DNA of 64,000 bases from Octopus vulgaris (Eukaryota). A program made the position numbers and the translations under genes. The DNA lies in assembly GCA_951406725.2 (NCBI GenBank), contig OX597837.1, positions 4,340,001 through 4,404,000 on the forward strand. Direction: 5' to 3'. Below, piece by piece: positions 575 through 62,125 of the stretch; within the stretch, counting starts at the first letter, position 1, and every line of letters starts with the position of its first letter. The notes under the pieces are model-generated. The model did no database searches, had not been told where the DNA came from, and saw nothing but the letters and a program-made list of their open reading frames with translations.

Positions 575-904
575 ATGAAATGCAAATTTGAGCTCGGCGA
601 AATTTGAACTCAAAACGTAAAGACGGACGAATTGTCTCTTACCATTTCGCCCGGTATGCTATGGATTTTGCCAGCTCGCCATCTTAATGATAATGATTAC
701 AAATTTTGGCCCAAGGACAACAAGTTCGGTGAAGGAGTAAGTGGATTGCGTGAACCCCAGTGTTCAATTGGTACTTATTTCATCGACTCCAAAAGGATGA
801 AAGATAAAGACGACCTCGGCGAAATTTGAACTCAGAACGTAAGGACTGACGAAATGCCTCTTTGCTTTTTGCCCGTCGGGCAAACGATTCTGCCGATCGC
901 CACC

Positions 905-907
<3 letters not shown>
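575..907 (-). mobile_element. Two adjacent SINE family B copies (tRNA head, Meta-domain-like core)
   Basis: Reverse complement of AAGGYGGCGAGCTGGCAGAA..GTTCTGAGTTCAAATT..GAGGTCG..TTTCATCCTTT..GTCGAT..AAGTACC, matching other B copies. Confidence 0.7.
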
Positions 908-976
<69 letters not shown>

Positions 977-979
<3 letters not shown>

Positions 980-2880: not shown

Positions 2881-3174
2881 GCCTAAGTTTTGTAACTGAT
2901 CTCATTTGCAACAGATTACAAAACCTTTGGTTTCTTCATCATCTCTTCTAGCAAAGAAATGAGCTGATGAGTTTTTTAACTTTGAAGGAGTATTTATAAA
3001 TCCGGCTTTTCTTTTCCTTCATTCCTGGAATCATTTGCTTCGTGTCAGATTAAATAGAAAAATAGACATAAATAGTGTATATCACCGTGATCACCGTGAT
3101 CGACCAGGCCATCAGATGTTGTTACACATCGCTGGTCACAATGCGCTTCGCATTGTTTTAGCCTTCAAATGACT

Positions 3175-3330
3175 TCGTCTGCCGTTACGTTCTGAGTTCT
3201 AATTCCGCCGATGTCCACTTTTCATCTTTTCAGGGTCGATAAATTAAGTATCAATGAAACACTAGGGGCGATGTAATCGACCATCCCCATCCCCCAATTT
3301 TTTAGGCTTTGTGCCTATAGCAGAAAGGCT
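3175..3330 (+). mobile_element. SINE family B, 5'-truncated, with CCCC..CTTTGTGCCTATAG tail type
   Basis: CGTTACGTTCTGAGTTC..GGGTCGATAAATTAAGTA..GATGTAATCGAC. Confidence 0.7.
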
Positions 3331-7418: not shown

Positions 7419-7572
7419 TGATCTGCCCCACCTTTTTTTTTGTTCACGATTCCTTTTCATCGGAATTCGCCCCCCACCTTTTTCCTTTTCACGATCCTTT
7501 TTGATCGGAATTTGCCCCCATTTTTTCCTCCTTTTGTTCGTCTTCTGTCCCTTCTGTGTGGCCATTAGAGAA

Positions 7573-7575
<3 letters not shown>
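7416..7575 (+). mobile_element. Tx1-like 3' terminal fragment between (ATCT)n and (ATGT)n
   Basis: CGATCCTTTTTGATCG and CCCTTCTGTGTGGCCATTAGAGAAAT resemble the 3' UTR and end at 33537-33655; internal ~46-bp duplication. Confidence 0.55.
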
Positions 7576-7605
<30 letters not shown>

Positions 7606-13905: not shown

Positions 13906-14174
13906 AAAGAAAAGCGGAGAGAGTACATTTTGCAAGTATTATATTAATGTCCTCATGTGCAAAAACATGATATTAGAAGAGGCGTGATCGAAGTTATATG
14001 GACATGTTCTCGAACACACACACTCAAACGCGAACACACACAAACCCTCTCTCTCATACACACACACGCTTCATCAAGGGATTCTCTCCAAAACTGAATG
14101 TTTGAAGGTAAAGTGGAGAATTTGCATTTTTATTCCAAATATGGCTCATCTCTACAAGTGTTCAGATATATATA

Positions 14175-14390
14175 TATTTCTTTATTGCCCACAAGGGGCT
14201 AGACATAGAAGGGACAAACAAGGACAGACAAAGGGATTAAGTCGATTACATCGGCCCCAGTTTTTAACTGGTACTTTATTTATCGACCCCGAAAGGATGA
14301 AAGGCAAAGTCGACCTCGACGGAATTTGAACTCAGAACGTAACGGTAGACACATCGCCCGGCGTGCTAATGTTTCTGCCAGCTCGCCGTT
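14175..14390 (-). mobile_element. SINE family B with Tx1-type tail
   Basis: Tail TTTGTCCCTTCTATGTCTAGCCCCTTGTGGGCAATAAAGAAAT. Confidence 0.85.
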
Positions 14391-15639: not shown

Positions 15640-15865
15640 TGTGTGTATGTATGTTTCTGTCTGTGTTTCTACCGCACCTCTGCTTGACAACCGGTGTTGG
15701 TGTGTTTACGTCCCCATAACTTAATGTTTCGGCAAAAGAGACCGCTAGAATAAGTATCAAGCTTAAGAAAAGCCAATGTGTTGTGGTCAATACATTCGAC
15801 TAGATATTCTTCGAGGTGGTGCTCCAGCATGGGCGCAGTCTAATGAGTGAAACAAGTAAAACATA
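15640..15865 (+). mobile_element. SINE family A, 3' half
   Basis: GCTTGACAACCGGTG..GGCAAAAGAGACCG..GGTGCTCCAGCATG. Confidence 0.8.
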
Positions 15866-16596: not shown

Positions 16597-16830
16597 CTAT
16601 TTCTTTACTACCCGCAAGGGGCTAAATATAGAGGGGACAAACAAGGATAGACAAAGGGAGTAAGTCGATTACATCGACCCCAGTGCGAAACTGGTACTTT
16701 ATTTATCGACCCCGAAAGGATGAAAGGTAAAGTCGACCTCGGCGGAATTTGAACCCAGAACGTAACGACAGACGAAAAACCGCAAATCATTTCGCCCGGC
16801 GCGCTAACGTTTCTGCCAGCTCGCCGCCTA
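16597..16830 (-). mobile_element. SINE family B with Tx1-type tail and 15-bp TSD
   Basis: ATCGATTATAAATAT at 16582-16596 and 16831-16845. Confidence 0.9.
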
Positions 16831-20822: not shown

Positions 20823-21921
20823 AAAACCTTTAAGGTGATTCCCTAACACAACCATTGTTCAATAACTACAAAAATGAAGGAATAATTTGATTTTTAATTA
20901 TTTACATTGAACTTAAGTTACGATATTGCTGTATTCAACTGATCTTAAGATTTGATTCTGTCACTATTGGGGTGATTGGTGGAACCTTTCCAGATACGTC
21001 TGGTGCATAGAAGACCCATTATATATTGGCGTTAACGTAATTAATGTACTGAACTAAATCAGAAAAAAAAAGAAACAGGCATTAATTAAAATGAAATACA
21101 TTGTGATGACTGGAATCTAATATCAAAGCTATTAATAGTACTCAAAAATTTCATGGGAGACAATTTATTTAAAAATTAATATACAGGTGCAGGAGTGGCT
21201 GTGTGGTAAGTAGCTTGCTAACGCACATGCGCAATTAGTCAGTTGCTTCCTGTTCAGCCAGAGTGGACGCGAGTCAATCAGCTCCGTCCAATTAAAGAAA
21301 AAAGACCAAAAGCGGAAAGTTGTCGAGGTAAGTGATTTTGTTTATTGTGAGTTGGGCATAATTTATTGCGTGCCAATTATTATTTCAGTAAGTTGTGTCC
21401 AACTCTGAGACAATTTCGCCTGCTCTCGGCGGCTGCCGTTTTTGTGTTCATTGAAAAAAAAAAAGAAAAAACAGTGGAGGGGCGTATCCTCAGAATTCAA
21501 TACAGTTACTGTTAAAATTACCGTTGGCGGTAGCCAGTGCTGTATTTGGGTTTGTTGAATTTATTCCCTTGTCAGAGTACTTCGCAAGAAAATTATAAAA
21601 ATAAGCCACTATTGGATTACCTTTCGGACCCATTTTTGTGGAGGTTGTGTTGCAGTTGCGGCGTTCCAGGTTCAACCCAGGCCGGGAGTACCGCAAGGCC
21701 AGAATATTTTGCTGTGTTTTTTCTGTTTATTAACTTTCTTTTGAACTTCATTTAACCCCCCCTTTTGTTTTTTTTCTTTATTGCGACTTTCCGTTAATTT
21801 CTTCCCTTCTGTTGTGCTTTCTCCTTTTTGTTTTTTCAAAAATCTATCAAATTTTATTTGGACTTTTGAACTTTTTTCTTCCTGCTTTTGAGTTTAATTT
21901 GAATATATTTAAAAAAAAAAC

Positions 21922-22788
21922 ATGGCAATGAAAAATAACAAAATTTTGGAGTGGGAAATCATACCCCCTAAAAAGTGGTTAAAAGACCGTGAAGATAGGA
22001 CGGTGGTGTTGAGAACCTACTCCAAGGCACTTGACACCATTGCCCTATTCGAAAAGACGGCAATTGAAAAGGAGTTGGAAGAGTATTTGCCAACAATTAA
22101 ATTCATTTCCAAGGGTGTCAAATATGCAACGGTGTGGTTGCTATTTGACACCCCCGAAGAGGCTTGCAAATTTGCTAGCAAATCCCTGGAGGGTAAGGAA
22201 ATCTTATTCCTGCCCACGTACAAAAAAAAGAAATTGATGAAAGCTTGGATTTGCGGACTGCCACCCGACATAGAACCCGAGTGGATAGAGGAGACTATCC
22301 GCCGGGGTCTGGGTGACAGCGAAACTAAGCTCCTCAATGTAAAAGTTCTTCCTGCGGCTGCTTGGGTTGGGTCAAAAGCAATTTTGACCCTGTGGACCCA
22401 ATCAGCCAATCTGGTTCTTCCAGATTTTTTGAAAATGGCCGGGTGTAGGTACCCGGTGATGCTTGAGGGTCGCCCCCCTAAGTGTCATCGGTGCTTGGAG
22501 TCCGGCCACATAAATAAGAACTGTCCTCGGGAACAAAATAGGATCCCGGAACAGTTAAGTAAAACCCCTCTAGAAGAGGGAACGATAACGGCCGAGAAAG
22601 CAGAGGACTCCTCAAACAGAGGCCGAAAGAGGAAGGTGAGCAACAATGGGTGCTCACCAAAGGATAATAGGGATGAGGAGAGGAAGGCGAATCTTCCAGC
22701 CACGGAGGAGACGCACCCTCCCTCAGTTGAAAAGGGAAAAAAAAGAAAAAGAGGAAGAAAAACGGGACATTACCGGCTGTCAGTGTAG
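21922..22788 (+). CDS. L1/Tx1-type ORF1 nucleic-acid-binding protein (RRM-like region and CCHC zinc knuckle)
   Basis: 288-aa ORF with GRPPK-CHRCLESGHINKNC (CX2CX4HX4C); collinear with ORF1 of the Tx1 element. Confidence 0.85.
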   Translation: MAMKNNKILEWEIIPPKKWLKDREDRTVVLRTYSKALDTIALFEKTAIEKELEEYLPTIKFISKGVKYATVWLLFDTPEEACKFASKSLEGKEILFLPTYKKKKLMKAWICGLPPDIEPEWIEETIRRGLGDSETKLLNVKVLPAAAWVGSKAILTLWTQSANLVLPDFLKMAGCRYPVMLEGRPPKCHRCLESGHINKNCPREQNRIPEQLSKTPLEEGTITAEKAEDSSNRGRKRKVSNNGCSPKDNRDEERKANLPATEETHPPSVEKGKKRKRGRKTGHYRLSV

Positions 22789-23159
22789 CACCGGAATGTC
22801 CCGGAACTACGTCGGTTGGGGTTGTGCCACCGACAAGAGAAGGAATACCGTTGGCGGAAACTGTGCCGCCAACGAAAGAACTGAACGTATTGGTCCTCTT
22901 CTATAGAGGAGGAGAAATTGAAAAAGTGATGGAAGAGCACTACAAGGGAGCACCTTTAGCCTTCACACAGGACCCCGAATGGCCTCCGCAGGTAGCTGTG
23001 GAGGCCGTGGCGTTCGACGTGACGCTTGGGCTAAAGGAGCTCAATGAAGATTATAACTTGGTCCCGGGCGACGCGAACTCGGAACTTGACTACGTTCTGA
23101 GGGAGGCGTGGTTGATGGTGGAGGGCGCGGGCACAAGCTATTTCGAGGACGATATGTAA
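22732..23159 (+). CDS. -1 frame C-terminal extension of ORF1 (fused product ~412 aa)
   Basis: The -1 frame is open from the GGGAAAAAAAAG run through KKRKKNGTLPAVSVAPEC..VVPPTREG..FEDDM*. Confidence 0.6.
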
Positions 23160-23180
23160 TTATTGAACTGTTATTATTAG

Positions 23181-23303
23181 TAATGGACTTAAGTCCAAAA
23201 ATTGAAAAATTGTAAGAGGATTAATACCTCGTTTTGTATTAATAATGGACTGCTAAGTCCAAAAATTGGAAAAATTGTAAGAGGTTTAATACCTCGTTTT
23301 GTG
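23181..23303 (+). repeat. Tandem duplication (~60 bp x2) in the 3' UTR
   Basis: TAATGGACT..AAGTCCAAAAATTG..AAAATTGTAAGAGG.TTAATACCTCGTTTTGT occurs twice. Confidence 0.9.
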
Positions 23304-25474
23304 TTTATCTTTAAGAAGAACAATGTTTTAGAGAAGCGAAAGCCGGCGGGCGCTTTTTGTCTTCTCCCATCCTTATCATCTTTCTTTCATTATCATTCAC
23401 TTCATTAATGTCCTCGTCCAGTCCGCAAAGCTAACTTAATCTGTGTACTGCCTTTATGGCAAATGTTTTGAAATAAAGTAGCTTGTTTACCAACCACATG
23501 GTTCCGTGTTCAGTCCCACTGCGTGGTACCTTGGGCAAGTGTCTTCTACTATAGCCGCAGGCCGACCAAAGCCTTGTGAGTGGATTTGGTAGACGGAAAC
23601 TGAAAAGAAGCCCGTCGTATATATGTATATATATATATGCGCGTGTGTGTTTGTGTGTCTGTGTTTGTCCGCCTAGCATTGCTTGACAACCGATGCTGGT
23701 GTGTTTATGTCCCCGTTACTTAGCGGTTCGGCAAAAGAGACCGATAGAATAAGTACTGGGCTTACAAAGAATAAGTCCCGGGGTCGAGTTGCTCGATTAA
23801 ATGCGGTGCTCCAGCATAGGCGCAGTCAAATGACTGAAACAAGTAAAAGAGTATAAGAGAGTTGAGAAGAAATATGCGTTTTGGTAGGTTTGTGACAATT
23901 CTGAATATGTTTATATATTATTAAGCATCTTAAGCTAAGCCTAGTTTAACACTTGTCGGCATAATATTGGTAACTGGAGAGAAAATAGGAGTTTAGTGAA
24001 TGCACACAGACTGGCGTGATAAATTTAAAAAAGTGACGGAGGAAAATTCTCAAGTGTTTCTATGGCATAGAAAAGTAGTTTTAAATTGGCTGCTAACACA
24101 TTTGATTTGGAGACAAAAGTAATTTTTTATTAATATGAATGACCCAGTTAAAAGAAACGAGGAAAAGAATTACATTATCAATCCTGATCACGAAAAGTAG
24201 GAGGGGTAACTTCAGCATTTAAGTTAATTAATTTTAATTTAATATAGAAAGCAATGATAAATGAGAGTTTTCACCGCAGAACTCTGTTGTTAATTAGTTA
24301 AAATTACACAAATTAACATTTGCATTGAATATAATACAGTTAACTAATTCGTGATATTGCAATTAACCTTATCAATGAATTTATACTTCTTCTTAATAAG
24401 GTCTTAATAATCAATTCATTAGAATAAAACCTTGCCAAATAAAAAGGAGACCCTTAAATTACCATATTAAAGAAAATAATCCCAGGTAATGGCCTATAAT
24501 TAGGAGCTCCCTGAGATCCCAAATATCTGTAAAATTATATTTCAAGGTGTCAGCCCCAAATTTCTTGAGCAAAATTATGTATTTACATCATATTTTGCAT
24601 ACAGATGCAATTTTAAATAATCAATTTTCTCTGCTTCACTAAATTCTTTATGTTATTAATTATATATTTAATTATGTTATCATGTCCACTATTATCAATT
24701 CCATACATGCAAACGAAGTCGCTAATGATAATTCCTGCTTTAGTTAACTTACATAACTCCGTTGATCCTATCATAACTATCACAATCACGTGTAATTTCC
24801 TCAATAAATATAAGCAGTAAGTATCCAATTAAAATAAGGTGCTGTAATTATTTAATGTATGTTTATTTAGTGTACCGGGCTAAATCAAAATCCCCCAATC
24901 GATCCTGAAAAGGTGTTAGTACATACATATCCTGAAATAAACTACCATGAAATAATTATAGTTACAAGACCAGCAAGAAATAGCAACTAAATCACATACT
25001 GCCTTAAAAAGGAAGATATATATTGAATAATATCCTGATCTGAAATGATTGAACGAAGAGTGGGACGGTCGTGGTAGGAAAGCCTTTGGTTATATCTCTG
25101 CTGAATCAGGCCTCACTTTGGAGAAAAAAATCATCAAAAAGGTGAAAACAAACAAGCAACTTAAAGCTCCATGGGCTCATCAAACGAAACATGCTCGTTC
25201 GGCGTAAGTAACGGAATGGTGGGATTTCAAAATCATTCCTAGAAATGGGGATGCTATTGGTCAAAGCAGAAGATTTTAGTTACTAGCCAGAATCAAATGA
25301 AATAGCTAAATAGTAAATAAAAATATATATTAGACATTTACTCGAAAATTATCACATTTTATCATTTTGGCAATATTCAGCGCTATTCCGTGCTAAATAT
25401 TTCTTTCTTCTAGAAACAAAAGACCTGAAAAGTTTTAGGAGATAGGGATAGATGATTATATCGAACGCGTGCAC

Positions 25475-25676: not shown

Positions 25677-25730
25677 TGGGTGTGTATGTGTGTGTCTGTG
25701 TTTGTCTCCCCAAACATCGCTTGGCAACAA
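25475..25730 (+). mobile_element. SINE family A, 5' part
   Basis: CGCAGGAGTGGCTGTGTGGTAAGTAGCTTGCTTACC; an uninterrupted version of the site split at 21222. Confidence 0.85.
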
Positions 25731-25985
25731 AGTCTGAAATTTTGTGTGGGGAGGGGGCCAGTCGATTACATCGATCCCTGTGTTCAACTGGTACTTATTT
25801 CGTCGACCCCGAAGAGATGAAATGCAAAACAGACCGCAACGGGATTGAACTAAAGATCCACGGGAAATGCCGGTATATATTTTGTCCAACGTTATCGATT
25901 TTGCCAGCACACAATTTTTGTTAAATGATATTCAGAAGAAAGAACCGTATCTTGCTGCTGGGTATTGAGTACAAAGATAAAGTGT

Positions 25986-27584: not shown

Positions 27585-27760
27585 GGACGTGCTGTCACTT
27601 CGGCTCCGAAGGTAATCGTTTATTTTGACTATTTATAGCCCATATTTTGTGTACATTTTTGCAAATAAGGTGTGTAAGGCACCCAACTTTCGTTTGAGTG
27701 CTTTTCCAAGGGAGTTTCAACCCCATTTCATTTCTGTAATTTTCTTCTCGACATTAGAAA

Positions 27761-29954
27761 ATGTCGAGATATTTTATTGTAGAACGCTGGTCGCGTTCCT
27801 TTATGGACCAGCATTTTCCTAGTTTGGAAACGCTAGGAGAAGAAAAAAAGAACTCATGCACGCAAAGTGCAAATCTAAATGACGTGGCAGTGAACGCTGC
27901 AACCACTTGCGATAACAACACTGTCACCACCACCACTAACAACAACAACAACAAGACTACTACTGCTACCACCACCGCCTCCACCACCACCACCACCGCC
28001 ACCTCATCCACTACCTCAACTAACAACAACAATAACAATGACAACAAGAATAACAACATTTGCGCCACCATTTCGACATCTGCTGCCACGGCTGTCTCTT
28101 CTGCCACTGACACCACCGCCAACAACAATAACAACAACAACAATTCCGTTCAGACCTTGTTTCATCCAACAACAAGAACTGAAGGGAATAAACAAAAGAC
28201 TGTGACCACCAAACAAATTGACAAAAGCTGCTCGAATGCAGGGATAAACTATGCAAGTAATTTTCCACCCCTTCCTACTTGCACAATCAAACCAAATACA
28301 CCGATTTTACCAACTGCAGCCAACAACAACATCACCACCAGCAACAACAATAACAAAACAACAACAAATTTCGCCGAGGCGATAAAAGAAAAAAAGACAA
28401 CAGTATATTTTACTGCACAACAAATAAAAGATACGAACATTTTAATAACGGAAGTAGATGGTATAGTAAAAATAAACATACCACAAGAAATATTAGAAGA
28501 TGAAAAGAAAAGAACAATTATATATAAAATAATTAATAAGAAAACAAAAAGTCCAGAGAAGGCTAACACAAGCAAAATCGAAAAATGCTTGAAACCCATC
28601 TGGAACTACAAAGAGTATGTGACCTGGTGGAACAAGTTCGCACACATACAAGTGGTCTTCCACACTGAAGAGTTAGCAAGACGTTTCTCAACGCTAACTC
28701 TTCATTCAGATGAACTTCAACTAACACCAAGCTATCGTGGACAGAAAGTGACTAAGATCACTTTAAACAATGTCCCAAAAATAGCTAACAATCTATGGCT
28801 AGTAAAGGCCTTATGTGTGAAAATGGAAGATTTCACAATTTTAGAAACTACGGTCACGGAGCACAAAAACTGGGTGGGAAAAAAGTAGAATTTCTACTAC
28901 ATATAAACCAAGAGGACATAAAGAAAATACCCACCCAGATATGTGTATCAGAAGACCACAAGTTGTATGTGGTCGTCGATGGCAGAAGACCACGTTGCTA
29001 CATATGCGGCAGTGAGCAACACCTAAAAAAAGACTGCAAATATGCCGCAAGAAAACAACAGCAACAACAACAGCAGCCGGAAAAAACAAATAAACCAGCT
29101 TTACTACCCACACCACGTTTTGCACGAACAGGACTAATCACAGAAAATCAACAAAAAACAAACCTCACCAACCAAACATCCACACCAACCGCAGCAAGAA
29201 CAGAAGCAACACCAACAACAACAACAACCAAGAATAAACCAACTCCCAAACCAAGGGCATCTGCCAAAAAGACACTCATCGAAAATGAAGAAACAATTAC
29301 TAGTCCAAATCCCCACAAAATTGACACCCCAAACAACACAACAATACCTACAATCACTCAAACACAAAATACCCACACCCCACCTCCAAAACCGCATACA
29401 CCACAACCTAACGCTCACCAACCAACACCAACAACACAGTCTACAATAGACCCCAATATTTTCCCTGTCCCAAGCTCTGATTTCTCTGATTTGTCATTAG
29501 ACGAAGAAGACACAGAAGATTGGCAAATAGCCACAGGGGGGAGAAGAAAAAGGGGAAAAAAAGAAAAGAAAATATAACAAACAAAGCAGGAAGATTCACC
29601 ACTCCCGAAACAAAAACATCCACAGAAAACAAACACATCAACACAAACACACCATCATGAAACCCCCCAACAATGTTGACAGCCATAAACACAAACAACC
29701 ACGACCTAATGGAACACATTAGGTCAAACACCAACATAACTGAAAACGACATAAAAACAAATAACCACCCACGCACAACACCACCACAACACATTAAAAT
29801 AATACACGTAACACAGAACACATACAGCACCCTGAAATCTCTTTACCCTGATGCAGTAGGGAGATTTCAAAAGTATTCATCAAAGAAACTATACAAAAAC
29901 CTCATGGAAGAAGACTGTGAGGTGAAAAACAAAAGACTTTCGAACAACAAGTAA
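27761..29954 (+). pseudogene. Tx1 ORF1 (Thr/Asn-rich N-terminus, RRM-like region, CCHC knuckle), broken by two -1 shifts and one TGA
   Basis: ORFs 27761-28888, 28795-29577 (GRRPR-CYICGSEQHLKKDC) and 29673-29954; shifts at about 28880 and 29555; TGA at 29658. Confidence 0.85.
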
Positions 29955-30022
29955 CCTTTTCTCTCTCTCTTTCCTATTTTGCACTTTCTTTTCGTGTGTA
30001 AAACACAATTTTTTATCGGAAC

Positions 30023-33000
30023 ATGCTCAGAATAGGCAGTATAAATGTACGTGGCTTGGGGTCGCCTTGGAAACAAGGCTACCTGTTAAATGACATCAAG
30101 TCACTAAATCTGAATATCATAGCCATCAGTGAGACCAGACTCCACAGCTCGCGGGCACTCCGGCACAGTTTCGGTACACATTTCAACATTTATTTTTCTC
30201 CGTGTCTACCGAGAATGGGCGGAGGTGGCACCGCGGTGCTTCTCCGGAAGAGTCTGGATCTCAAAGTAAGAGCAATTTTCCTAGACCCGGAGGGTAGGCT
30301 GGTCGTTTTGGATGTCGATGGCAGCAATGAGTGTGCTTTTCGACTGATAGCAGTTTATGCTCCGTCCTTAACAGGCCGACCAGATTTCTTTCGACGTCTA
30401 GAGTCTTTCATGGGAACGTCTCGTCCTTTACTTTTAGTGGGGGATTGGAATGCCACCCTGGACACGCATCTAGACTACGTGGGCAGAGATAGCAATAGAA
30501 GGGGATGCAAATGCCTCAAAGACCTGCTCAGACGTTTCCAACTGTCTGACAGGTACCGACTGGACCACCCGAATGTGCCAATGTGGACATGGAGTAACCG
30601 CATCGGGTCGTCCAGATCATACTTAGATAGAGTATTCTGTAGGACAATAGATAAAAATAGTGTAGGTTGTCCACAATTTCATATAGTCAGTTACACAGAT
30701 CACAAGTTTGTGACTTGTACACTTGACTTAGATAAGACACATAGGCAGGGTCCTGGTTACTGAAAACTGAACGCGTCTTTTACAGCACGACAGGTTTACA
30801 GGGACCGGATCAGCACATTAGTTAAGAGAGCTTTGACGGGTACCATCATCAACAACAGATGGTGGTATGCCCTAAAAAAAGCAATTAAAGTAGAATCAGT
30901 CAGATACAGTAAAGCCCTAGCATTAGACCGAAATAGAATAGAGGGAGAATTAGTTAAGGTTTTAGAAGAGGCACTTAGAACTGGCATCGCGTCCAACGTG
31001 CTGGCGGCGAGATTGGCCCTCGACCAACACCTCAACGCCAAACACGAGGGATGCGTTGTCAGAGCTAGGATGCGTGCTCTGAGGAACGAAGGAGTTGGAG
31101 CCGCCCAAGAGGCCCGAGTGGTGGAGACGCAACGAGGCAACAGAGCCACCATCAAGTCTCTTATAGATGAACAGGGGCGCGAATTGCTCGAGCCTAAAAG
31201 GATGTGTGGGGCTTTTCAACAACACTTCACCCAACTGTTTGGGACAAGTGGTGGGTCAGAACGCAGAGTGGACTTTAGTGCCTGCCTTGCTACGACTCTC
31301 AGCAAGAGAGGTGGAGTCTTGTGAAAGGCCTATCACAGCTGCGGACGTACAGGATGCGATGGTAGGCTGCGCGAGAGTATTATAAAACGGGAGTATTCCT
31401 GCTTTTGTAAAGCGAGGAGCAGTAGCACTGATTAAGAAAGACCCAAACAAGGGGGACGTCATAGATAATTTCAGGCCCATCACTCTCCTCAATGCAGATT
31501 TGAAAATTTTGGCCAAGGTGTTAGCCGAGAGGTTGGCGCTTGTCATCAAGAAACTAATCGACAAGGCGCAAACATGCGCCGTGCCGGGTAGAAGTATTCA
31601 TGACAACCTCCATCTGATGCGCTACATCATAGACAGGGTAGTTAAGAATCCTGGCATGGGTGGGGCGCTGATCAATTTGGATCAATCAAAAGCTTTCGAT
31701 AGGGTAGACCATCACTACTTGGAGGCTGTCCTTAAAGCGTCTGGTTTCGGTCCAGTTTTCCGCGGTTGGATCGCTGCCTTATACAGCGGCATCCGCTCAG
31801 TAGTTCGCGTAAATGGTCATCTATCCAGACCTTTTAACATCATGCGTTCGGTTCGTCAGGGATGCCCCCTCTCATCGCTCCTGTATGTATTGACTCTTGA
31901 GCCACTACTGCGGAAACTGGCGACGCTGAGGGGCATCCAACGAGAGCTGGGATGCGGGAGGAGCGTGTCTGCATACGCGGATGACGTCACCGTCATAGTG
32001 TCGAGCTACAAGCACATCGAACTGGTCGGCGAGACACTAAAAGAATACGAAGCGGTAACGGGAGCAAAAATTAACCGGGAAAAGTCAGTGGGCTTGCGGC
32101 TCGGTACCTGGAGAAGCAGGCCCATGCCGTCCAACAGCGACTCCATCGTGGGACGCTGGACGGACGGACCGGTTAAATTGCTCGGGGCCTGGTTCGGTCC
32201 GGACCTCTAAATGGAGAAGAACTGGGGCGAGATAACGACTAGGGTGGCTACTCTCACCCAGAAATGGACTGAGAGAAAGCTATCCCTAAAACGTCGGGCG
32301 GGGGTGGCGAACGCGTACATCGCATCCGCCATCGAGTATCGTCTGACCGTCGTGCCTTGTCCCGACCCTACCATCACCAAACTGGAACGTATACTCTTCC
32401 GCTTCTTGTGGAAGGGAAACGTTCCGATGGTTAGGCGATCCATTTGCTGTCAACACCCGCTAAATGGAGGGCTGGGCATGCCGTGGTTGATGATGCGCAG
32501 ACATGCGCTGAGACTGCGACATCTCCGGCGCTTCATAGACAACGGTGAACAGGTGTGGTCGCCTTTTGTGCGGCGCGCTTTCCCGCAGCTCGTCTCCTTG
32601 GACGAACTACAGTCATGGATCAAGCAGAGGCCGAGGCTAGGCGAATGGCACCGCGAGTGTCGCGTTGCTCTCAAGCAACTCTGCCGTCCGGGATCGAACT
32701 TGTGCGACTCCATCACAACAAAGGCATTCTATAGAGGATTAGTGGAAGGGAGGTGCGACGACGAACTCGGACAGAGTCTGGGCGTCGACGAGGAACACCT
32801 GACCCGCCTGTTCAGGACAACTTTCGGACCGGGACCTATGAACAATCACCAAATATCCCTGGCCTGGTAGTGCTATCGAGAAGCATTACCTGTTCGGGAT
32901 AAGCTCTACAGACACGGTTCCAGACACACTGGACCGATTTGCCCGAGATGCGGTCAGAGCGACGAAACCGTTCTGCACGCACTCGTGCAATGTCCAACCA

Positions 33001-33358
33001 TTTCAGACCTGTGGGCTTATGCCGAGCGGCTGCTGACACGTGTGGGACGAATCCGCCTATCGGCCGAGTCTATCGTGAGAATTGCTCCGCCCCCTTCCTT
33101 CAACCGGGAAGGCAAGGCAGTTTTCATCGTACTGGTGGCCATGGTGAAAGAATGTGTGTGGTGGACCCGAGCGAAAGGATTAGAGACAAACACTTACCTC
33201 TCTGGCCAATCGCTCATCAACTTTTTCAAGTACCACTTGAAAAGGAAGGTGAGAATGGAGAGGGAAGTTTTGTCTCGCGAAAGATTAAAAAAAGACGGGT
33301 GAATGTTGCAAAGATGGTGCGTGCGAGTGACGAAACCATTTTGAGCATGATCCTGTAG
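30023..33358 (+). pseudogene. Tx1 ORF2: AP endonuclease, reverse transcriptase, C-terminal zinc finger
   Basis: SINVRGL, ISET, VYAP, GDWN, SYLDRV, TDH (APE); FRPITLLNAD, LDQSKAFDRVDH, VRQGCPLS, YADD (RT); CPRCGQSDETVLHALVQC; stops at 30761, 32208 and 32868, frameshifts, and an apparent deletion near 31375. Confidence 0.95.
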
Positions 33359-33655
33359 ATCGTAAAAAAGAAAGAAAGAGAGCATTTTGATCTCATGTGG
33401 TTATTTCCTCCCTGACTGAGGTTCCCGTGGTCTTTTCTGTAGGCTTTTCTTCCCACGGATGAACCCAATCTTGTTTTATCAATGTTTTTATCATTATTTC
33501 TGTGATACACGATTTCTTTTCTTTTTTTCCTCCTCTCGATCCCTTTTGATCGCAATCTTACATTTATTTTCTTTTTTTTCCACCCTCGAAAAGAAAAGCT
33601 CTGCATTTGTATTTGTCCCCTCTGTATTCAGCCCTGTGTGGCTAATAAAAGAAAG

Positions 33656-34338: not shown

Positions 34339-34939
34339 AAAGGCGGAGAGCTGGCAGAAACGTTAGCACGCTGGGCGAAATGCTGAGCGGTATTTCGTCT
34401 GCGTTACGTTGTGAGTTCAAATTCCGCCGAGGTCGACTTTGCCTTTCATCCTTTCGGGGTCGATAAATTAAGTACCAGTTACACACTGGGGTCGATGTAA
34501 TCGACTTAATACCTATGTCTGTCCTTGTTTGTCCCCTCTGTGTTTAGCCCCTTGTGGGTAATAAAGAAATAGGTATTTCGTCTGCCGCTACGTTCTGAGG
34601 TCAAATTCCGCCGAGGTCGAATTTGCCTTTCATCTTTTCGGGGTCGATAAATTAAGTACTAGTTACGCACTGGGGTCGATGTAATCAACTTAATCCGTTT
34701 GTCTGTCTTTGTTTGTCTTCTCTGTGTTTAGCCCCTTGTGGGTAGTAAAGAAATAGGTATTTCGTCTGCCGTTACGTTCTGAGTTCAAATTCCACCGAGG
34801 TCGGCTTTTCCTTTCATCCTTTCGGGGTCGATAAATTAAGTGCTAGTTACGCATTGGGGTGGATGTAATCGACTTAATTCCTTTGTCTGTCCTTGTTTGT
34901 CCCCTCTCTGTTTAGCCCCTTGTGGGCAATATAGAAATA
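34339..34939 (+). mobile_element. Trimer of SINE family B with Tx1-type tails, single flanking TSD
   Basis: Units joined as tail AAAGAAAT|AGGTATTTCGTCTG at about 34571 and 34755; TSD AGAATCTGTACAGC at 34322 and 34940. Confidence 0.9.
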
Positions 34940-35064: not shown

Positions 35065-35280
35065 GTGGTGGGCTGGTAGAATCGTCAGCACACGAGACAC
35101 AATGCTTTGCGACGTTTCTTCCAGCTTTACGTTCTGAGTTCAAATCATACCGGGGTCAAGTTTGCCCTTCAACCCGTTTTAGGGCCAATAAAAAGTAAGT
35201 ACCAGTTGAGCACTTGGGGGTCGATATAGTCGACAAACATTCTTCTCCAGAATTTCAGGCCTTGTGCAAATAGTTGAAAA
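35065..35280 (+). mobile_element. Diverged SINE family B
   Basis: GTTCTGAGTTCAAAT..AAGTACCAGTTG..GGCCTTGTGC. Confidence 0.65.
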
Positions 35281-35524
35281 GAGTGATTGCTGGTTATGGC
35301 ATCGTTGCGGATGCAGGAATGGAAAACAACGAGGGCATAGATGTGTGTTTAAGTAGTTGGGGGTTTCACCACGATGTTCAGGGTTCAGTCTGACTGTTTG
35401 ACACCTTATGCGAGGGCCCCCTACCATAACCTGGAGTTAAGTAATGCTTTCGAAAGTGTATGAAGCCCTGTCACATGTGTATGCGGATATATAAAATATA
35501 TACACACGCATATAAATATATCTT

Positions 35525-36729: not shown

Positions 36730-37042
36730 GAGTAAAAGCACTTAATAATTTGTTTTTACTATTTTGGATCGTATCTCCTTTTCTCATTGGGAATTGATAA
36801 CAATTGTCGTCTGGTTTTTGTTTCCTATATACAACTCGAGGGAGATTTTGAATGAATTAGGAATTCATTATTCGCAAAATTCTAAACTTCTTTTATTACT
36901 TAATCCAAAATATTATTCTGTCGGCCCCTTCAGATTCTGCATCCTACAAATTTGTATATTTATTTTATACAAACACACACAAGCAACACACCCGCCAACA
37001 CAAGTAAAGTATAGAAAATAAAAATAAAAATATATATACTTT

Positions 37043-37757
37043 GTGATAAAATGCAGACGGCTAGCTGGATGGATTCTCCGAACTTTCAGAACAAGAGAGA
37101 AGGAGACACTGATGGTCCTATGGAAAACATTCGTCCTCAGCCGCTTGGACTACTGCTCCCAACTATGGTCACCACACAATATAAAACTAACAGCAGAACT
37201 CGAAGCAATTCAGAGAAGCTACACAAAGAAAATCGTCTCAATGCAAAATATCAGCTACTGGGAAAGACTGAAGGCATTAAACCTCTTCTCCCTAGAGCGG
37301 AGGCGGGGGAGATATGCGGTGATATACATCTGGAAAATCTTGGAGGTCTGGTCCCAAACTTTGGCATTAAAAGTTACCCAACCGCAAAACGGGGCGCCAC
37401 TGTATGGTGCCAAAGATTCCAACATCACCATCAAAATACAGGTCCAGATACTGCAACAGCTTGGGTTTCAGAGGACCACAGCTCTTCCACATCCTCCATA
37501 AATGCCTGAGAGACTTGCATGGTGTGGATGTGGGTTTCTTTAAAACTAAACTGGATCTCTTCTTGTCGGGAGTCCCAGATGAACCTACCTCACGACAGGA
37601 GACGCAGATGCGGGCAGCAGCGTCGAACTCCCTTGTTGATCAAGTGCCACGTATCAGAGGTGGATTCACATATTAGTGTAGCTCATTCAGCGGTGGTGCC
37701 CCAGCATGGCCGCGGCCTTCGGGCTAAAACATTTTTAAGGATTTAAGGATTTAAGGA
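37043..37757 (+). pseudogene. 5'-truncated CR1/L2-group LINE: RT C-terminal region, 3' UTR and (ATTTAAGG)n tail
   Basis: GWILRTF..LWKTFVLSRLDYCSQLWSP..LEAIQR..SYWERLKALNLFSLERRR..FKTKLDLFL; 8-bp tandem tail. Confidence 0.9.
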
Positions 37758-37952
37758 TATGTGTACACACATACACATACATACGCATAAATACACGCAG
37801 ATACACACACAGACATACACGCACGCACACACACACATGCTCACACAGAGGATGTACTGATGAAACCTTGTAATTTTACAGGCAGGAGTTGAATGCTGCA
37901 TCTCATCTAATGTCTAAGTCTATATATACACACACACACACATATATATATA

Positions 37953-40638: not shown

Positions 40639-40679
40639 TGCACATATACATACATAAATATACAAATATATATTTACCC

Positions 40680-41050
40680 ACGTTCTCGAATTTGTGGGGA
40701 ATGGACTAGTCGATTACATCGATCCCCACTATTTCACTGGTACTTAATTTTTCGACCCCGAAAGAATGAAAGATTAAGTCAACCTTCGCGGAATTTGAAC
40801 TCAGAACGTAACGACAGACGAAATACCTATTTCTTTACTACCCACAAGGGACTAAACAGAGAGAGAACAAACAATGACAGACAAACGGATTAAGTCGATT
40901 ACATCAACCTCCAGTGCATAACTGGTACTTTGTTTATCGACTCCGATAGGATGAAAGGTAAAGTCGACCAGGCGGAATTTGAACTCAGAAGGTAAAGTCA
41001 GACGAAAGAATTTCGCCCGATATGCTAACGATTCAGCAAGATCGTCGCCT
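40680..41050 (-). mobile_element. Nested SINE B pair: Tx1-tailed copy followed by a copy with a different tail
   Basis: Junction AAAGAAAT|AGGTATTTCGTCTG at about 40827 (minus strand). Confidence 0.85.
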
Positions 41051-41300
41051 TGGGGATAATAATAATCCCTTTTACTATAGGCACAAGGTCGGAAACTTTT
41101 GGGGAGGGAGCTAATCGATTGTATCGATCCCCAGTATGTATGTATGTATGTATGTATGTATGTATGTATGTATGTATATTTGTATGTATGTATGTATGTA
41201 TGTATGTATGTATGTACGTATGTATGTATGTATGTATAAGCTGTATTTTTAAAATCTTTTATTAAATGTAACAAGCCCGAAAACCTTTTGATACCACCCA

Positions 41301-41604: not shown

Positions 41605-41646
<42 letters not shown>

Positions 41647-41649
41647 TTT

Positions 41650-41850
41650 AAAATTTTGGCACAATGTCAGCAATTCTGGGGGAGGAGGTTAAGTCGATTA
41701 CATCGACCCGAGTCCTCAAGTGGTACTCAATTTATCACCCTCGGAAGGATGAAAGGCAAAGTTGATCTCTGCGCAATTTGAACTCAGAACGTATAGACGG
41801 ACGAAACGCCACTAAGTATTTTGCCTGACATGCTAACGGTTCTGCTATCT
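41650..41850 (-). mobile_element. SINE family B
   Basis: Family B core motifs. Confidence 0.75.
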
Positions 41851-42497
41851 TGCTTTACATATATACACGCACACACACACTTAAACACTCACAAAACCAA
41901 ACACACACACACACTCACAAACGCACACACATATACACACACTCATACAATTTTGTATATGTTCTATATTTAATGTAGTATTTAATTTTTGCTGCTTTCT
42001 TTTTCTAAGCTGATATAATTTTATATTTCTCAATGCGAAGCCTACAACGAAAGTTCAAATCTAATTAAACTTTGATTGTCTCTATTGAATTTATGATAAG
42101 CATTATAATTCTTCTCCCTAGTGTTATCTATATAAACCAGATGAATTTCAATTCTACGTAAAATTAAATTTTGTATTCGATGATACCGTTGATGTTCTCC
42201 CATTGGTATCTTTATGAGGTATCTTTATGTATGTTTATATGCCTTTGGGATAGCTAGTTACGAATTAAGGAACACAATTATGATTTCATGTAACGGCAGC
42301 TGTACAGGAATAATGAAAAATAGCATCGGAATAACAGCAGATAACTACGACCAGCAATGATGGCGCTTGTGGCAATATTCAAATAATTTTCGTGTAGGAA
42401 GTTTAGGTAGCCAATAGGGTTTTCTTACGTATGCATGAGACTAACGTTTGTTATGCACGAAAGTTATTCTATCACGTAGTCAGGTCACATTTCAGAG

Positions 42498-44236: not shown

Positions 44237-44450
44237 AAGGCGGCGAGCTGGTAGAAACGTTAACACCTCGGGCGAAATGCTTTGCAGTATTTCGTCTGCT
44301 GTTACGTTCTGAGTTCAAATTCCGGCGAGGTCGACTTTGCCTTTCATCCTTTCGGGGTCGATAAATTAAGCACCATTTACGTACTGGAGTCAATCTAATC
44401 GACTGGTGCCCTCCCCAAAAATTTCGGGCCTTGTGCCTAGAGTAGTAAAC
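44237..44450 (+). mobile_element. SINE family B (non-Tx1 tail) with 18-bp TSD
   Basis: GAATGGGTTASGTTAGAT at 44219 and 44451. Confidence 0.9.
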
Positions 44451-45262
44451 GAATGGGTTAGGTTAGATTAGTCGTGGCACCTCACTAGCCACCTAAGTGG
44501 GTGCTAGGCATGACAACCACTTAAAAGGCGCGCTACAAAGTTAAATAAAATAAATGATTGAGAATCTCTGCATCAGAGTGTACCGCATAACCAGGTCTTA
44601 TCTCAAACAAATAAAGAAACAAATCTGAAGTAGAAAAAAGATATCTTCATACTTTGAAATAATTAAAAACGTGAGAATAATAATTAATATTTTTGACTAA
44701 TTGAACACCTGGGAAAGAAAGAAAAGCAAAAGAAAAAAATATCAAATCAATTTTTTTAATAGATTTATGAAACCATTCTGAGAATTGTTTTCTATTTCGG
44801 AACTTTTGAATCGAATGGTTATTGTTGACAATTTAAGTAATAGAAAATATAGATAATTATTACCATACCTTATCAAGATATTTCTCTTATCTTCATGTTT
44901 TAACGATTTCAATTTATTTTTTAAAAAGCTTTCTTTTCCCCTGGTTAATTTCGTTTATAAAGGCATCAGAATATCGTATTTTTCATTTCGATTCACTTAT
45001 TTTTCCATCTTGATTTCTCTTTGATAACTTGAAACGTTTGTACAAACATTATAGTCAAGCATACACAAACGTTTGTCAACCATGAGTGGTATTACGTATT
45101 ATATATGTGTGTGTGTGTATGCGTACGCGCGTGTGGGTGTGTATTATACGTATTGCATGTATATCTAAATTCCTACGTATAATAATACACACATACACAC
45201 ACACATATATATCCATATTCACACACTCACATCACCTTGCTCACACAAGTACACAAACACAT

Positions 45263-45497
45263 AAGGCGGCGAGCTGGCAGAATCGTTAGCACGCCGGGCG
45301 AAATGCTTAGCAGTATATTTCGTCTACCGCTACGTTCTGAGTTCAAATTCCGCCGAAGTCGACTTTGCATTTCATCCTTTCGTGGTCGATTAAATAAGTA
45401 CCAGTTACGCACTGGGGTCGATATAATCCAATTAATCTGTTTGTCTGTCCTTGTTTGTCCCCTCTGTTTTTAGCCCCTTGTGGCTAATAAAGAAATA
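45263..45497 (+). mobile_element. SINE family B with Tx1-type tail
   Basis: Ends TTTGTCCCCTCTGTTTTTAGCCCCTTGTGGCTAATAAAGAAAT. Confidence 0.9.
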
Positions 45498-49154: not shown

Positions 49155-49590
49155 TCATGTTTTATCCTTGTTTTCGTCATTTGATTTCGGCCATGCTGGA
49201 GCACCGCCTTTGGTCAAACAAATCTACCCAAGCACTTATTCTTTGTAAGCTTTGTAAGCCTAGTACTTATTCTATCGGTCTATTTTGCCGAACCGCAAGG
49301 TTACGGAGACATAAACACACCGCCATCGGTTGTCAAGTGATGTTGGGGGGACAAACACAGACAAACAAACACACACACACACACAGACACACACATATAC
49401 ACACACATATATATATACATATATACGACGGGCTTCTTTCAGTTTCCGTCTACCAAATCCACTCACAAGGCTTTGGTCGACCCGAGGATATAGTAGAATA
49501 CACGTGCCTAAGGTCCAACGCAGTGGGACTGAACCTGGAGCCATGTGGAATGGTAAACAAGCTACTTACCACACAGCCGCACCTACGCCT
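49155..49590 (-). mobile_element. Full-length SINE family A
   Basis: Head, core and tail present. Confidence 0.85.
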
Positions 49591-51184: not shown

Positions 51185-51630
51185 TCTTCAAGTATCACTT
51201 GAAAAGGAAGCTGAGACTAGAGAGGTACGTTTTGTCGAGCGAATGTTTAAAAAAAAAGATGGGTGAATGTAGCAAGGGTGGCACGTATGAATGATGAAGC
51301 CACCTTGAGCATAATCCTATGAACCCGGAAAAATTTCAAACAGTTACTTACTTGCAAATAAATCTGTTAACATGTGACATTATTGACCGAGGTTACCGTG
51401 GTCTTTCCCGTAGGCTTTTCTTTCCAAGGATAAACCTTATCTGCTTCCCTCTTTACACTTTACATCAAGACATTTCTGTGATACTGGATCCCTATTGAAC
51501 GGTTTTTCTTTATTTTTTACGATCACTTTTGATCGACCCCCCTTTTTTCTTTTTTTTCTCCCCCAAAGAAAAGCTCTACTTTGTAATTTGTCCCTTCTGT
51601 GTTCAGCCCTGTGTGGCTAATAAGGAAACA
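51185..51630 (+). mobile_element. 5'-truncated copy of a related Tx1 subfamily, in (ATCT)n
   Basis: Homologous to 33225-33655 (FKYHLKRK.., GCCCTGTGTGGCTAATAA); followed by (ATCT)n. Confidence 0.9.
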
Positions 51631-56097: not shown

Positions 56098-56100
<3 letters not shown>

Positions 56101-60039: not shown

Positions 60040-60270
60040 CGACAGATGAATACCTATTTCTTTACTACCTACAAGGGGACAAACAAGGACAGACAAACGG
60101 AATAAGTCGATTACATCGACCCCAGTGTGTAATTGGTACTTATTTAATCGACCCCGAAAGGATGAAAGGCAAAGTCGACCTCGGCGGAATTTGAACTCAG
60201 AACGTAACGCCAGACGAAATACGGTTACGCATTTCGCTCGGCGTGCTAACGTCTCTGCCAGCTCGCCCCA
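60040..60270 (-). mobile_element. SINE family B with Tx1-type tail followed by AGGTATTCATCTG
   Basis: Same tail junction as at 34571 and 40827. Confidence 0.85.
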
Positions 60271-60442
60271 TTTTATTCTTGAATACCATCAGGGATCATG
60301 ATCATCATGATCATCATCATTATCATCATCAACTACAAAGAGATTCTCTTTAACGTTGGTTGGTAGCTCAACGTTAAATCAAAAATAGAGAATAAGAATG
60401 AACGAAAGAGGTAGATAGATAAGTAGGTAAGTGTATATATAT

Positions 60443-61959: not shown

Positions 61960-62125
61960 ATTCTCTTCCACTCTAGGCACAAGGCCCGAAATGTTTATCG
62001 ACCCCTCGAAAAGATGAAAGGCAAAGTCGACCACAGCGGAATTTGAACTCAGAACATAAAGACAGACGAAATACCGCAAAGCAAAACGCCCGGCATGCTA
62101 ACGTTTCTGTCAGCTCGCCGCCTTA
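61960..62125 (-). mobile_element. SINE family B, internally deleted
   Basis: Head AAGGCGGCGAGCTG; tail GGGCCTTGTGCCTAGAG. Confidence 0.8.

What the first reader, a model, noticed from the sequence alone, without database searches (positions are those of the whole stretch)
33607..33655. SINE B subfamily carries the 3' end of the Tx1 LINE
Seen: the LINE ends TTTGTCCCCTCTGTATTCAGCCCTGTGTGGCTAATAAAAGAAA. SINE B copies (14175, 16597, 34339 x3, 45263, 60040) end TTTGTCCCCTCTGTGTTTAGCCCCTTGTGGGTAATAAAGAAAT, keeping a small GCCC..GGGY/GGCT hairpin before AATAAA. Known: shared 3' tails mark LINE-SINE pairs mainly in stringent clades (L2, CR1, RTE), whereas L1-group elements are usually regarded as relaxed and poly(A)-dependent. 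Inference: a stringent Tx1-SINE partnership; other B copies (3175, 44237, 61960) use a different tail, implying a switch of partner LINE.
Basis: partly seen in the sequence, partly recalled or inferred. Interest (0 to 1): 0.7.

Follow-up and report, generated by a model that had tools for sequence, protein, structure and literature searches.

The report
SINE borrows Tx1-type retrotransposon tails
A short parasitic repeat in what is probably an octopus genome ends in tails copied from L1/Tx1-type retrotransposons, suggesting that this animal lineage picks its RNA by a structured tail rather than by poly(A), unlike mammalian L1.

Summary
A decayed L1/Tx1-group LINE (27585-33655), a truncated relative (51187-51629) and eight SINE B units share a coterminal ~43-nt tail, far above chance. 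One named copy (60040) lacks 15 nt of it. Between the two LINEs the tail core is 35/37 identical, against 107/136 at the ORF2 end and 136/251 in the rest of the UTR. No copy carries poly(A), and three insertions end at the tail inside 14-16-bp target duplications. New here: the 'different' SINE tail is also L1/Tx1-derived. It matches (28/31 nt) the 3' ends of related elements found as contamination in a bacterial MAG. Those elements keep a two-hairpin, poly(A)-less end across lineages only 48% identical in ORF2, with compensatory changes. So the partner switch is within one LINE clade. Stringent recognition is inferred, not assayed. Against it: the window tail shows no two-sided covariation, and the SINEs do not share the LINEs' (ATCT)n target. 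Shared tails are well known, and L1-clade pairs exist in maize and Chlamydomonas. I found no animal L1/Tx1 pair in ten literature searches; Repbase and Dfam were not checked.

The parts
27585..33655 (+). Full-length but decayed L1/Tx1-group LINE, ~6.07 kb, both ends in (ATCT)n
   Evidence: ORF2 stops at 30761, 31383, 32208, 32868 plus frameshifts
27761..29577 (+). ORF1, frameshifted near 28790-28888, with a CCHC zinc knuckle
   Evidence: Pfam zf-CCHC E 0.0019, just under the curated cut-off
30023..33358 (+). ORF2: APE-type endonuclease, reverse transcriptase, C-terminal Cys region
   Evidence: Pfam Exo_endo_phos E 1e-14, RVT_1 E 2e-32; best solved relatives are L1 ORF2p; RT 70% identical to an Argonauta hians protein
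33612..33654 (+). Tail 1 on the LINE: interrupted stem with apical AGCC/GGCT hairpin, AATAAA, no poly(A)
51187..51629 (+). 5'-truncated relative LINE (ORF2 end plus 3' UTR), in (ATCT)n; tail 51587-51628
7420..7575 (+). Third LINE 3'-UTR fragment; tail lacks 12 nt (5' arm of the apical hairpin); 5' flank (ATCT)n
   Evidence: blastn E 1e-4 to the LINE UTR; model R1 E 0.037
14175..14386 (-). SINE B with tail 1; 16-bp target duplication (1 mismatch)
16598..16829 (-). SINE B with tail 1; 15-bp perfect target duplication
34342..34939 (+). SINE B trimer: one headed and two headless units, each ending in tail 1; one 14-bp perfect target duplication around the whole
40828..41050 (-). SINE B unit with tail 1, followed by a headless unit (40670-40827) with a truncated tail-2-like end
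45264..45497 (+). SINE B with tail 1 that keeps the LINE's GGCT arm; no target duplication found
60053..60271 (-). SINE B with tail 1 lacking 15 nt, followed by ~17 nt resembling the start of a second unit
44239..44452 (+). SINE B with tail 2a; tail matches foreign L1/Tx1-group 3' ends at 28/31 nt; 18-bp target duplication (1 mismatch)
61963..62123 (-). SINE B with tail 2a, internal deletion; 10-bp target duplication
3174..3330 (+). 5'-truncated SINE B with tail 2a
35066..35285 (+). Older SINE B with tail 2
41063..41130 (-). 3' end of a SINE B with tail 2a and a short (ATT)n, directly upstream of the 40828-41050 unit
41643..41853 (-). Older SINE B with tail 2b
692..905 (-). Older SINE B with tail 2b; its best match in foreign element L001 lies at that element's 3' end
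25715..25880 (-). Old SINE B fragment with a truncated tail 2

Best explanation
SINE B is a Pol III-type SINE whose body ends in a GTCGA..TCGAC hairpin. Behind that point it has, more than once, acquired the last 40-60 nt of LINEs of one cephalopod-associated L1/Tx1-group clade, probably by template switching during reverse transcription. These LINEs end in a structured, poly(A)-less tail. The likely mechanism is that ORF2p binds this stem-loop and starts target-primed reverse transcription at the tail's end, as L2/CR1-type stringent LINEs do; a SINE RNA carrying the tail is then copied in trans. Tail 1 (the younger SINE subfamily) comes from the lineage of the window's LINEs, tail 2 (older, heterogeneous) from sister lineages not present in the window. 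Shown: shared tails, their conservation, absence of poly(A), target duplications, relationship of the LINEs. Inferred: direction LINE to SINE, ORF2p binding, dependence on the tail, and which family did the mobilising.
For: Coterminal match above chance. Tail core 35/37 between the LINEs versus 107/136 at the ORF2 end and 136/251 in the rest of the UTR, though a second block, 33411-33470, is also conserved at 49/60. No A-run longer than 4 at the 8 window ends shown, and 0-1 extra A after AATAAA in 49 of 49 foreign matches, which come from overlapping loci and are not all distinct. 3 of 5 independent tail-1 loci end at the tail inside 14-16-bp duplications. An 11-pair stem is kept in 88.9% of cells versus 37-61% when slid, with 5 pairs varying only by A-U/G-U. 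39 of 45 loci are arrays of relatives (RT 52-55% identical) in one MAG. Whole SINE copy 44237 against all 45 loci gives 20 matches at E 1.25e-4, all at those elements' 3' ends; the next best is E 0.23. A model built only from 7 window tail-2 copies hit 6 sites in 8 loci at E<=10, all of them element 3' ends. Over whole 6.4-6.8-kb elements the best match lay within 45 nt of the 3' end in 19 of 40 tail-2 comparisons and 0 of 20 control comparisons. Foreign lineages 48% identical in ORF2 keep GGCCTYGTGCC unchanged, plus a second hairpin with two-sided changes at 2 pairs (covariation reached by 1/500 shuffles); fold z-scores -1.8 to -4.1 in 6 of 6. Tail-1 bodies differ by 0.11, tail-2 bodies by 0.24 (28 pairs each). 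Stem recognised generally and loop specifically is shown for zebrafish L2 (PMC4176376, passages).
Against: No two-sided covariation in the window's own tail alignment (0 of 11 pairs; 0 of 8). The window LINE ends fold no better than shuffles (z 0.01 and 0.14 for 65-66 nt; -1.7 and -1.2 for 48-49 nt). 0 of 5 independent tail-1 loci lie in (ATCT)n while 3 of 3 LINE 5' junctions do, whereas SINEU shares the target of its Tx1 partner (PMC4494074). SINE 60040 and LINE fragment 7420-7575 lack the hairpin's 5' arm; if lost before insertion, the hairpin is dispensable. Four positions of tail 1 differ from both window LINEs in most SINE copies, so neither is the exact donor. Tail 1 matches the foreign ends only weakly (model R1 best E 3.7; 2 of 20 best matches at the 3' end). 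The tail-2 model does not find the window LINE ends. The ORF1-only relative at 21223-23474 has no significant tail match. The covariation control ignores relatedness, and 8 of its 9 rows are close kin. No partner for tail 2 was seen in the host genome itself.
Confidence: 0.7

Rival explanations
1. The tail was captured from the LINE but is not a recognition signal. It is conserved in the LINE for another reason, such as Pol II 3'-end formation around AATAAA, RNA stability or base-pairing with the target at priming, and ORF2p is relaxed.
For: AATAAA lies at the end of the foreign elements and of the 33.6-kb LINE. Two window elements lack the hairpin arm. Weak folding of the window tail. The ORF1-only relative inserted with a ~15-bp duplication without a significant tail match. 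SINEU is carried by Tx1-Mar without a shared 3' end (PMC4494074, section 19).
Against: A Pol III SINE has no use for a poly(A) signal, yet it took tails from this clade at least twice and ends at the same position as the LINE. No poly(A) on any insertion examined. Loop sequence invariant across 48%-identical ORF2 lineages.
Confidence: 0.18
2. Tail 1 is a passenger. It came in once by recombination and spreads inside multimeric SINEs, whose real terminal signal is tail 2 or belongs to another LINE clade (RTE, CR1).
For: 4 of 8 tail-1 units are followed by a headless unit or its start. At 40670-41050 a tail-1 unit precedes a tail-2-like end. Some tail-2 copies end in (ATT)n. The SINEs ignore the (ATCT)n target.
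Against: Three duplication-bounded insertions end exactly at tail 1. Tail 2 itself maps to L1/Tx1-group ends. The CR1-like LINE end in the window matches SINE A, not SINE B.
Confidence: 0.07
3. The direction is reversed: a SINE B end became fixed at the 3' end of an ancestral LINE.
For: SINE copies vastly outnumber LINE copies, and the SINE's CTTGT loop is common to tails 1 and 2.
Against: The two LINEs, 21% apart at the ORF2 end, share LINE-specific states, and their similarity runs on into the UTR with no SINE body. Relatives in another organism carry tail-2-like ends with no SINE B body anywhere in 391 kb. Tail-1 SINE bodies are young.
Confidence: 0.04
4. Chance similarity of T-rich, low-complexity ends.
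For: The tail is T/G-rich and short; a similar TTTGTCCCC occurs inside SINE A.
Against: Dinucleotide-preserving shuffles, coterminal position and negative controls.
Confidence: 0.01

Closest known systems
Maize/sorghum ZmSINE2, ZmSINE3 with LINE1-1_ZM; Chlamydomonas SINEX-3_CR with L1-1_CR (Ohshima 2012 PMC3472496; 2013 PMC3747384)
   Same: L1-clade LINE shares ~45-80 terminal nt with a tRNA-type SINE; last 45 nt more conserved than the rest; hairpin with compensatory stem and conserved loop; stringency inferred from sequence.
   Different: Plants and a green alga, not an animal. L1-1_CR and SINEX-3_CR end in poly(A), while these ends have none. Here one SINE body carries several tails from different lineages of the same clade.
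SINEU with Tx1-Mar in crocodilians (Kojima 2015, PMC4494074)
   Same: A SINE thought to be carried by Tx1-clade elements.
   Different: SINEU has snRNA heads and poly(A), shares target choice but no 3' terminus with a LINE (stated for SINEU-1). Here the 3' terminus is shared and the target is not.
Stringent L2/CR1/RTE/Nimb pairs (UnaL2-UnaSINE, ZfL2; bivalve SINEs with CR1, CR1-Zenon, L2, Nimb tails of 35-61 bp, PMC11481361)
   Same: Short coterminal shared tail, stem-loop, tail swapping on a common SINE body.
   Different: Different LINE clades; Tx1 does not occur in the bivalve paper's main text or in the table of 58 pairs. Those tails usually end in microsatellite repeats.
Microsatellite-targeting Tx1 families Kibi, Koshi and crocodilian (TTCC)n/(TTTC)n families (as described in PMC4494074)
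   Same: APE-RT LINE inserted in a simple repeat.
   Different: The target here is (ATCT)n; phylogenetic closeness to Kibi/Koshi was not tested.
Octopus SINEs OK, OR1, OR2 (Ohshima and Okada 1994; paper not held; the name OK is recalled)
   Same: tRNA-type SINEs of octopus; SINE B may be one of them.
   Different: Identity could not be checked. OR1/OR2 are called CORE-SINEs (PMC4824008, PMC4758252); the CCTTGGG-type CORE motif occurs at 7 sites in the window, all in SINE A and none in SINE B.

Membership tests
L1 group (L1/Tx1) non-LTR retrotransposons | ORF2 with N-terminal APE endonuclease and RT closest to L1 | tested here: met
   Pfam hits; solved-structure hits: L1 ORF2p 90-92 bits versus R2 53-61 bits; L1 endonuclease
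Tx1 clade | RT groups with named Tx1 references (Tx1L, Keno, Kibi, Koshi) | not testable with these tools
   No named Tx1 reference was available; the tree only places the element in a 15-row set (95/93) with Argonauta, Acanthosepion and the foreign loci
Tx1 clade | ORF1 with RRM/CCHC knuckle rather than the mammalian type | tested here: inconclusive
   zf-CCHC E 0.0019, under the cut-off. The homologous ORF1 at 21913 resembles CCHC/ZCCHC3-RBD clusters at 0.89-0.93. The LINE's own segment gave unnamed clusters only. Link of such ORF1s to Tx1: PMC5203782 passage
Tx1 clade | Target-sequence preference | tested here: met
   3 of 3 5' junctions abut (ATCT)n, which with margins covers 2.3% of the strand; 2 of 3 3' flanks; small sample
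SINE-LINE pair with shared tail | Significant similarity confined to the 3' termini of both | tested here: met
SINE-LINE pair with shared tail | Matching insertion signature (target, duplication length) | tested here: inconclusive
   SINE duplications 14-16 bp; LINE duplications unreadable inside the microsatellite; (ATCT)n target not shared (0 of 5)
SINE-LINE pair with shared tail | Overlapping age profiles | not testable with these tools
   Two to three LINE copies only; tail-1 bodies lie 2-10% from their majority
Stringent-type LINE | 3'-terminal stem-loop conserved beyond the rest of the UTR | tested here: met
   35/37 versus 136/251; invariant hairpin across foreign lineages
Stringent-type LINE | Compensatory base changes in the stem | tested here: inconclusive
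   None two-sided in the window set; 2 pairs in the foreign second hairpin, among related rows
Stringent-type LINE | Retrotransposition depends on the tail; ORF2p binds it | not testable with these tools
   Needs assays
Relaxed (mammalian-type) L1 | Insertions end in poly(A) | tested here: not met
   No poly(A) at 8 window ends or 49 foreign matches
tRNA-derived SINE | tRNA-related head with A and B boxes | tested here: inconclusive
   Box-like motifs seen by eye (box consensus recalled). ARAGORN found 0 genes in the window and Rfam 0 matches on copy 44237
CORE-SINE | CORE domain motif in the body | tested here: not met
   0 of 7 motif sites fall in SINE B; only one 11-nt motif was tested, not the full domain

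The most novel reading that the evidence does not exclude
Coleoid cephalopods harbour an old L1/Tx1 clade that is stringent and poly(A)-independent, recognising a small GC stem with a CUYGU loop. One octopod SINE body has captured tails from at least three of its lineages (tail 1, 2a, 2b). In the lineage seen in the window the recognition hairpin was lost from its ancestral place and re-formed on top of the second stem. This would be the first animal L1-group case of strict tail recognition and would support stringency as the ancestral state of the whole L1 group.
Probability: 0.35. Interest if true: 0.8.

Novelty: new variant of a known kind. Interest (0 to 1): 0.62.

Why it matters
Ohshima's proposal that L1-group elements were first stringent and relaxed later rests on two plant/algal pairs; among 58 tabulated pairs none is an animal L1 or Tx1. 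A cephalopod clade with conserved poly(A)-less structured ends, intact copies (loci L003-type, 1158-aa ORF2) and SINEs carrying several natural tail variants makes that question directly testable in animals, by tail swaps and ORF2p binding. It may also name the engine behind part of the octopus-specific SINE expansion: SINEs are 11.6% of the O. vulgaris genome, mostly unclassified, and 13 L1-Tx1 families are recently active (PMC13282606, passages).

Tried and rejected
ARAGORN and Rfam gave nothing useful: microsatellite-driven miRNA hits only, no tRNA match. The idea that the apical hairpin of tail 1 is simply tail 2's hairpin with swapped pairs was tested two ways. A hand-made score trained on tail 2 ranked the two LINE ends 14th and 16th of 127,912 sites, but its layout was chosen after seeing the likeness. 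The unbiased Infernal model missed both ends, and model R1 aligns the outer stem of tail 1 to the foreign second hairpin instead. The register is left open. The ORF1-only element's end looks similar by eye but failed every test (P 0.08), so it is not counted. The SINE body tree had no well-supported branch; tail labels cluster but the order of events is not shown. The 8-bp 'duplication' at 60040 was rejected as chance. The CR1-like LINE end and the 556-bp repeat at 978/56099 are not the source of tail 2. Six more distant RT loci (L039-L043, L045) lack the 11-nt hairpin, but at least three hold little or no 3' UTR. Source names for the RT relatives could not be looked up, so the Tx1 label has no name-based support. 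The 1994 octopus SINE paper, SINEBase supplements and one MetaSINE supplement could not be seen and may bear on SINE B's identity. Metagenome and viral collections stayed unchecked, and no eukaryotic genome collection, Repbase or Dfam was available.

Full report
Setting. The window is repeat-rich animal DNA. The LINE's RT is 70% identical to an Argonauta hians protein and 55% to an Acanthosepion pharaonis protein, the best named hits, so an octopod host is likely (inference). The LINE runs from about 27585 to 33655 between (ATCT)n arrays. It has a frameshifted CCHC-type ORF1 and an endonuclease-RT ORF2 broken by four stops and frameshifts. Its nearest solved relatives are L1 ORF2p. 'Tx1' is likely from ORF1 type and target choice but was not tested against named references.

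The observation. The shared tail is real and coterminal. The pattern search gave 8 sites against 0.00 expected. UTR-versus-SINE alignments placed the match at the last ~44 nt and beat all 300 shuffles for 6 of 8 and 7 of 8 tail-1 units with the two LINEs, and for 0 of 7 tail-2 copies. A model built on nine tails recovered, beyond its training set, copy 60040 (E 8.5e-5) and a third LINE end at 7539-7576 (E 0.037). Copy 60040 lacks 15 nt and the 7.5-kb fragment 12 nt, both removing the 5' arm of the small hairpin. SINE tails match the LINE tails at 30-36 of 42 positions, the two LINEs each other at 37 of 42; neither LINE is the exact donor.

The tail belongs to the LINE. The two LINE copies are 107/136 identical at the end of ORF2, 136/251 over the UTR without tail, and 35/37 in the tail core; one other UTR block is also conserved at 49/60. 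Their similarity continues upstream of the tail with no SINE body. In the SINE the tail begins just after a body hairpin, the same point at which tail 2 begins. Tail-1 bodies are less diverged (0.11) than tail-2 bodies (0.24), each over 28 pairs, with three tail-1 units belonging to one tandem insertion. This fits capture of the LINE end by an older SINE.

Structure and ends. Both LINE ends and three of five SINE tails folded show an interrupted stem topped by a GC-rich hairpin. The 11 pairs hold in 88.9% of cells against 37-61% when slid, but no pair changes on both sides, and folding energies of the LINE ends are not unusual. A 4-6-bp apical stem is possible in 7 of 8 tail-1 units: it is listed for six and seen for 34339c. 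No element ends in poly(A). Three of five independent tail-1 loci have 14-16-bp target duplications starting within a base or two of the tail's end. Four of eight units have no run of four T; the other four have one of 4-5 T. No terminator marks the end, so SINE RNA should run past the tail, and copying must start at a point the tail defines (inference).

The unexpected result: tail 2. A scan of prokaryotic genome assemblies with an RT alignment returned 45 loci. 39 are head-to-tail arrays of relatives (RT 52-55%) within one MAG (CAXXMW01 contigs), evidently eukaryotic contamination; its source was not pursued. Two lineages are present, 48% identical over ORF2 and each 42% identical to the octopod-type protein P0121. 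They fall with the window LINE, Argonauta and Acanthosepion in one set at 95/93 support. Both end in a C-rich, A-rich stretch, a hairpin with invariant GGCCTYGTGCC, a second hairpin and AATAAA, without poly(A). The second hairpin shows two-sided changes at 2 pairs (5 cells; 1/500 shuffles, relatedness not controlled), and these ends fold better than shuffles (z -1.8 to -4.1). SINE tail 2 matches the first hairpin and its upstream stretch. Copy 44237 agrees at 28/31 nt; the whole copy searched against all 391 kb gives 20 hits at E 1.25e-4, all at element ends. A tail-2-only model found 4 hits at E<=1 in 45 loci and 6 at E<=10 in 8 loci, all at element ends. Best matches fell within 45 nt of the end in 19 of 40 tail-2, 2 of 20 tail-1 and 0 of 20 control comparisons. 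Tail 2b copy 700 matches the L001 lineage and tail 2a mostly the L003 lineage, a hint (one copy) of separate captures. Tail 1 relates to these ends only weakly: 16/18 nt for the 51-kb LINE (E 0.007), and model R1's best hits are element ends at E 3.7.

Mechanism. The most likely reading is stringent recognition: ORF2p binds the terminal stem-loop and primes reverse transcription at its end, and SINE B exploits this by carrying the tail. The model comes from zebrafish L2, where the stem is recognised generally and the loop specifically (PMC4176376, passages). Here binding and dependence are inferred. The main difficulty is that the LINEs sit in (ATCT)n (3 of 3 5' junctions; 2.3% of the strand) and tail-1 SINEs do not (0 of 5). 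The active partner may therefore be a sister family with the same tail and no such target; O. vulgaris has 13 recently active L1-Tx1 families (PMC13282606, passages). Rivals are a tail conserved for 3'-end formation with a relaxed enzyme (0.18), a passenger tail in multimeric SINEs (0.07), reversed direction (0.04) and chance (0.01).

What is known. Seen: Ohshima 2013 passages and all of Table 1, with no Tx1, octopus or animal L1 pair. Ohshima 2012, first third: three SINEs with L1 tails among 58. Kojima 2015, passages, part 3 of 5 and sections 3 and 19: SINEU with shared target but no shared 3' end found for SINEU-1. Passages only of PMC11481361, PMC4758252, PMC4824008, PMC3531059, PMC5786205, PMC11203168, PMC5203782 and PMC8967140. 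Ten searches showed no SINE sharing a 3' tail with a Tx1 element. The library lacks most subscription papers, the 1994 octopus paper, Repbase and Dfam, so prior annotation is not excluded.

Verdict. Observation confirmed; interpretation partly supported and extended. It works like a stringent LINE-SINE pair, in a LINE group where animals had no such pair in the sources seen. New variant of a known kind; interest 0.62.

Noticed in passing
window 21223-23474 (+): ORF1-only, HAL1-like non-autonomous element: ORF1 homologous to the LINE's ORF1 (E 2e-9), CCHC knuckle, no ORF2, internal ~60-bp direct repeat in its 3' part. Inserted into the head of a SINE A with a ~15-bp duplication; ends in GAAATA like tail 1, but tail similarity is not significant.
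   Followed up: partly
window 37015-37760 (+) with SINE A ends (e.g. 10847-10882, 15810-15836, 49188-49208): A CR1/L2-like LINE 3' fragment ending in (TTTAAGGA)n shares about 20-35 nt near its end with the SINE A tail (best E 0.017): a second, conventional LINE-SINE pair in the same window.
   Followed up: partly
window 34342-34939, 40670-41050, 60035-60271: Tail-1 units are repeatedly followed by headless units restarting at the same internal point, implying a multimeric source. Copy 16597 ends one base, and 60040 about 17 bases, into such a unit.
   Followed up: partly
L001-L038, L044 (CAXXMW01 contigs): A bacterial MAG record holds many contigs made of head-to-tail arrays of largely intact ~6.5-kb L1/Tx1-group elements separated by short spacers: eukaryotic contamination, and possibly repeated insertion into a regenerated target.
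   Followed up: partly
L039-L043, L045: Six other MAG contigs carry more distant L1-group ORF2s (RT 35-45%), also likely contamination.
   Followed up: no
window 978-1533 and 56099-56652: A 556-bp repeat, 95% identical, flanked on both sides by (AAT)n at both loci, without a clear reading frame; possibly a (TAA)n-targeting non-autonomous element.
   Followed up: no
window 13094-13202 and 14068-14175: Inverted duplicate (96%) in which one copy is the empty site of the SINE B insertion at 14175, confirming that insertion's boundaries.
   Followed up: partly
SINE A copies, e.g. window 23700-23860: SINE A carries a CORE-like motif and, just before its tail, the same GTCGA..TCGAC-type hairpin segment as SINE B, suggesting a shared tail-swap point across both families.
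   Followed up: no
window 33411-33470 and 51384-51440: A second conserved block (49/60) in the LINE 3' UTR, not shared with the SINE; function unexplained.
   Followed up: no
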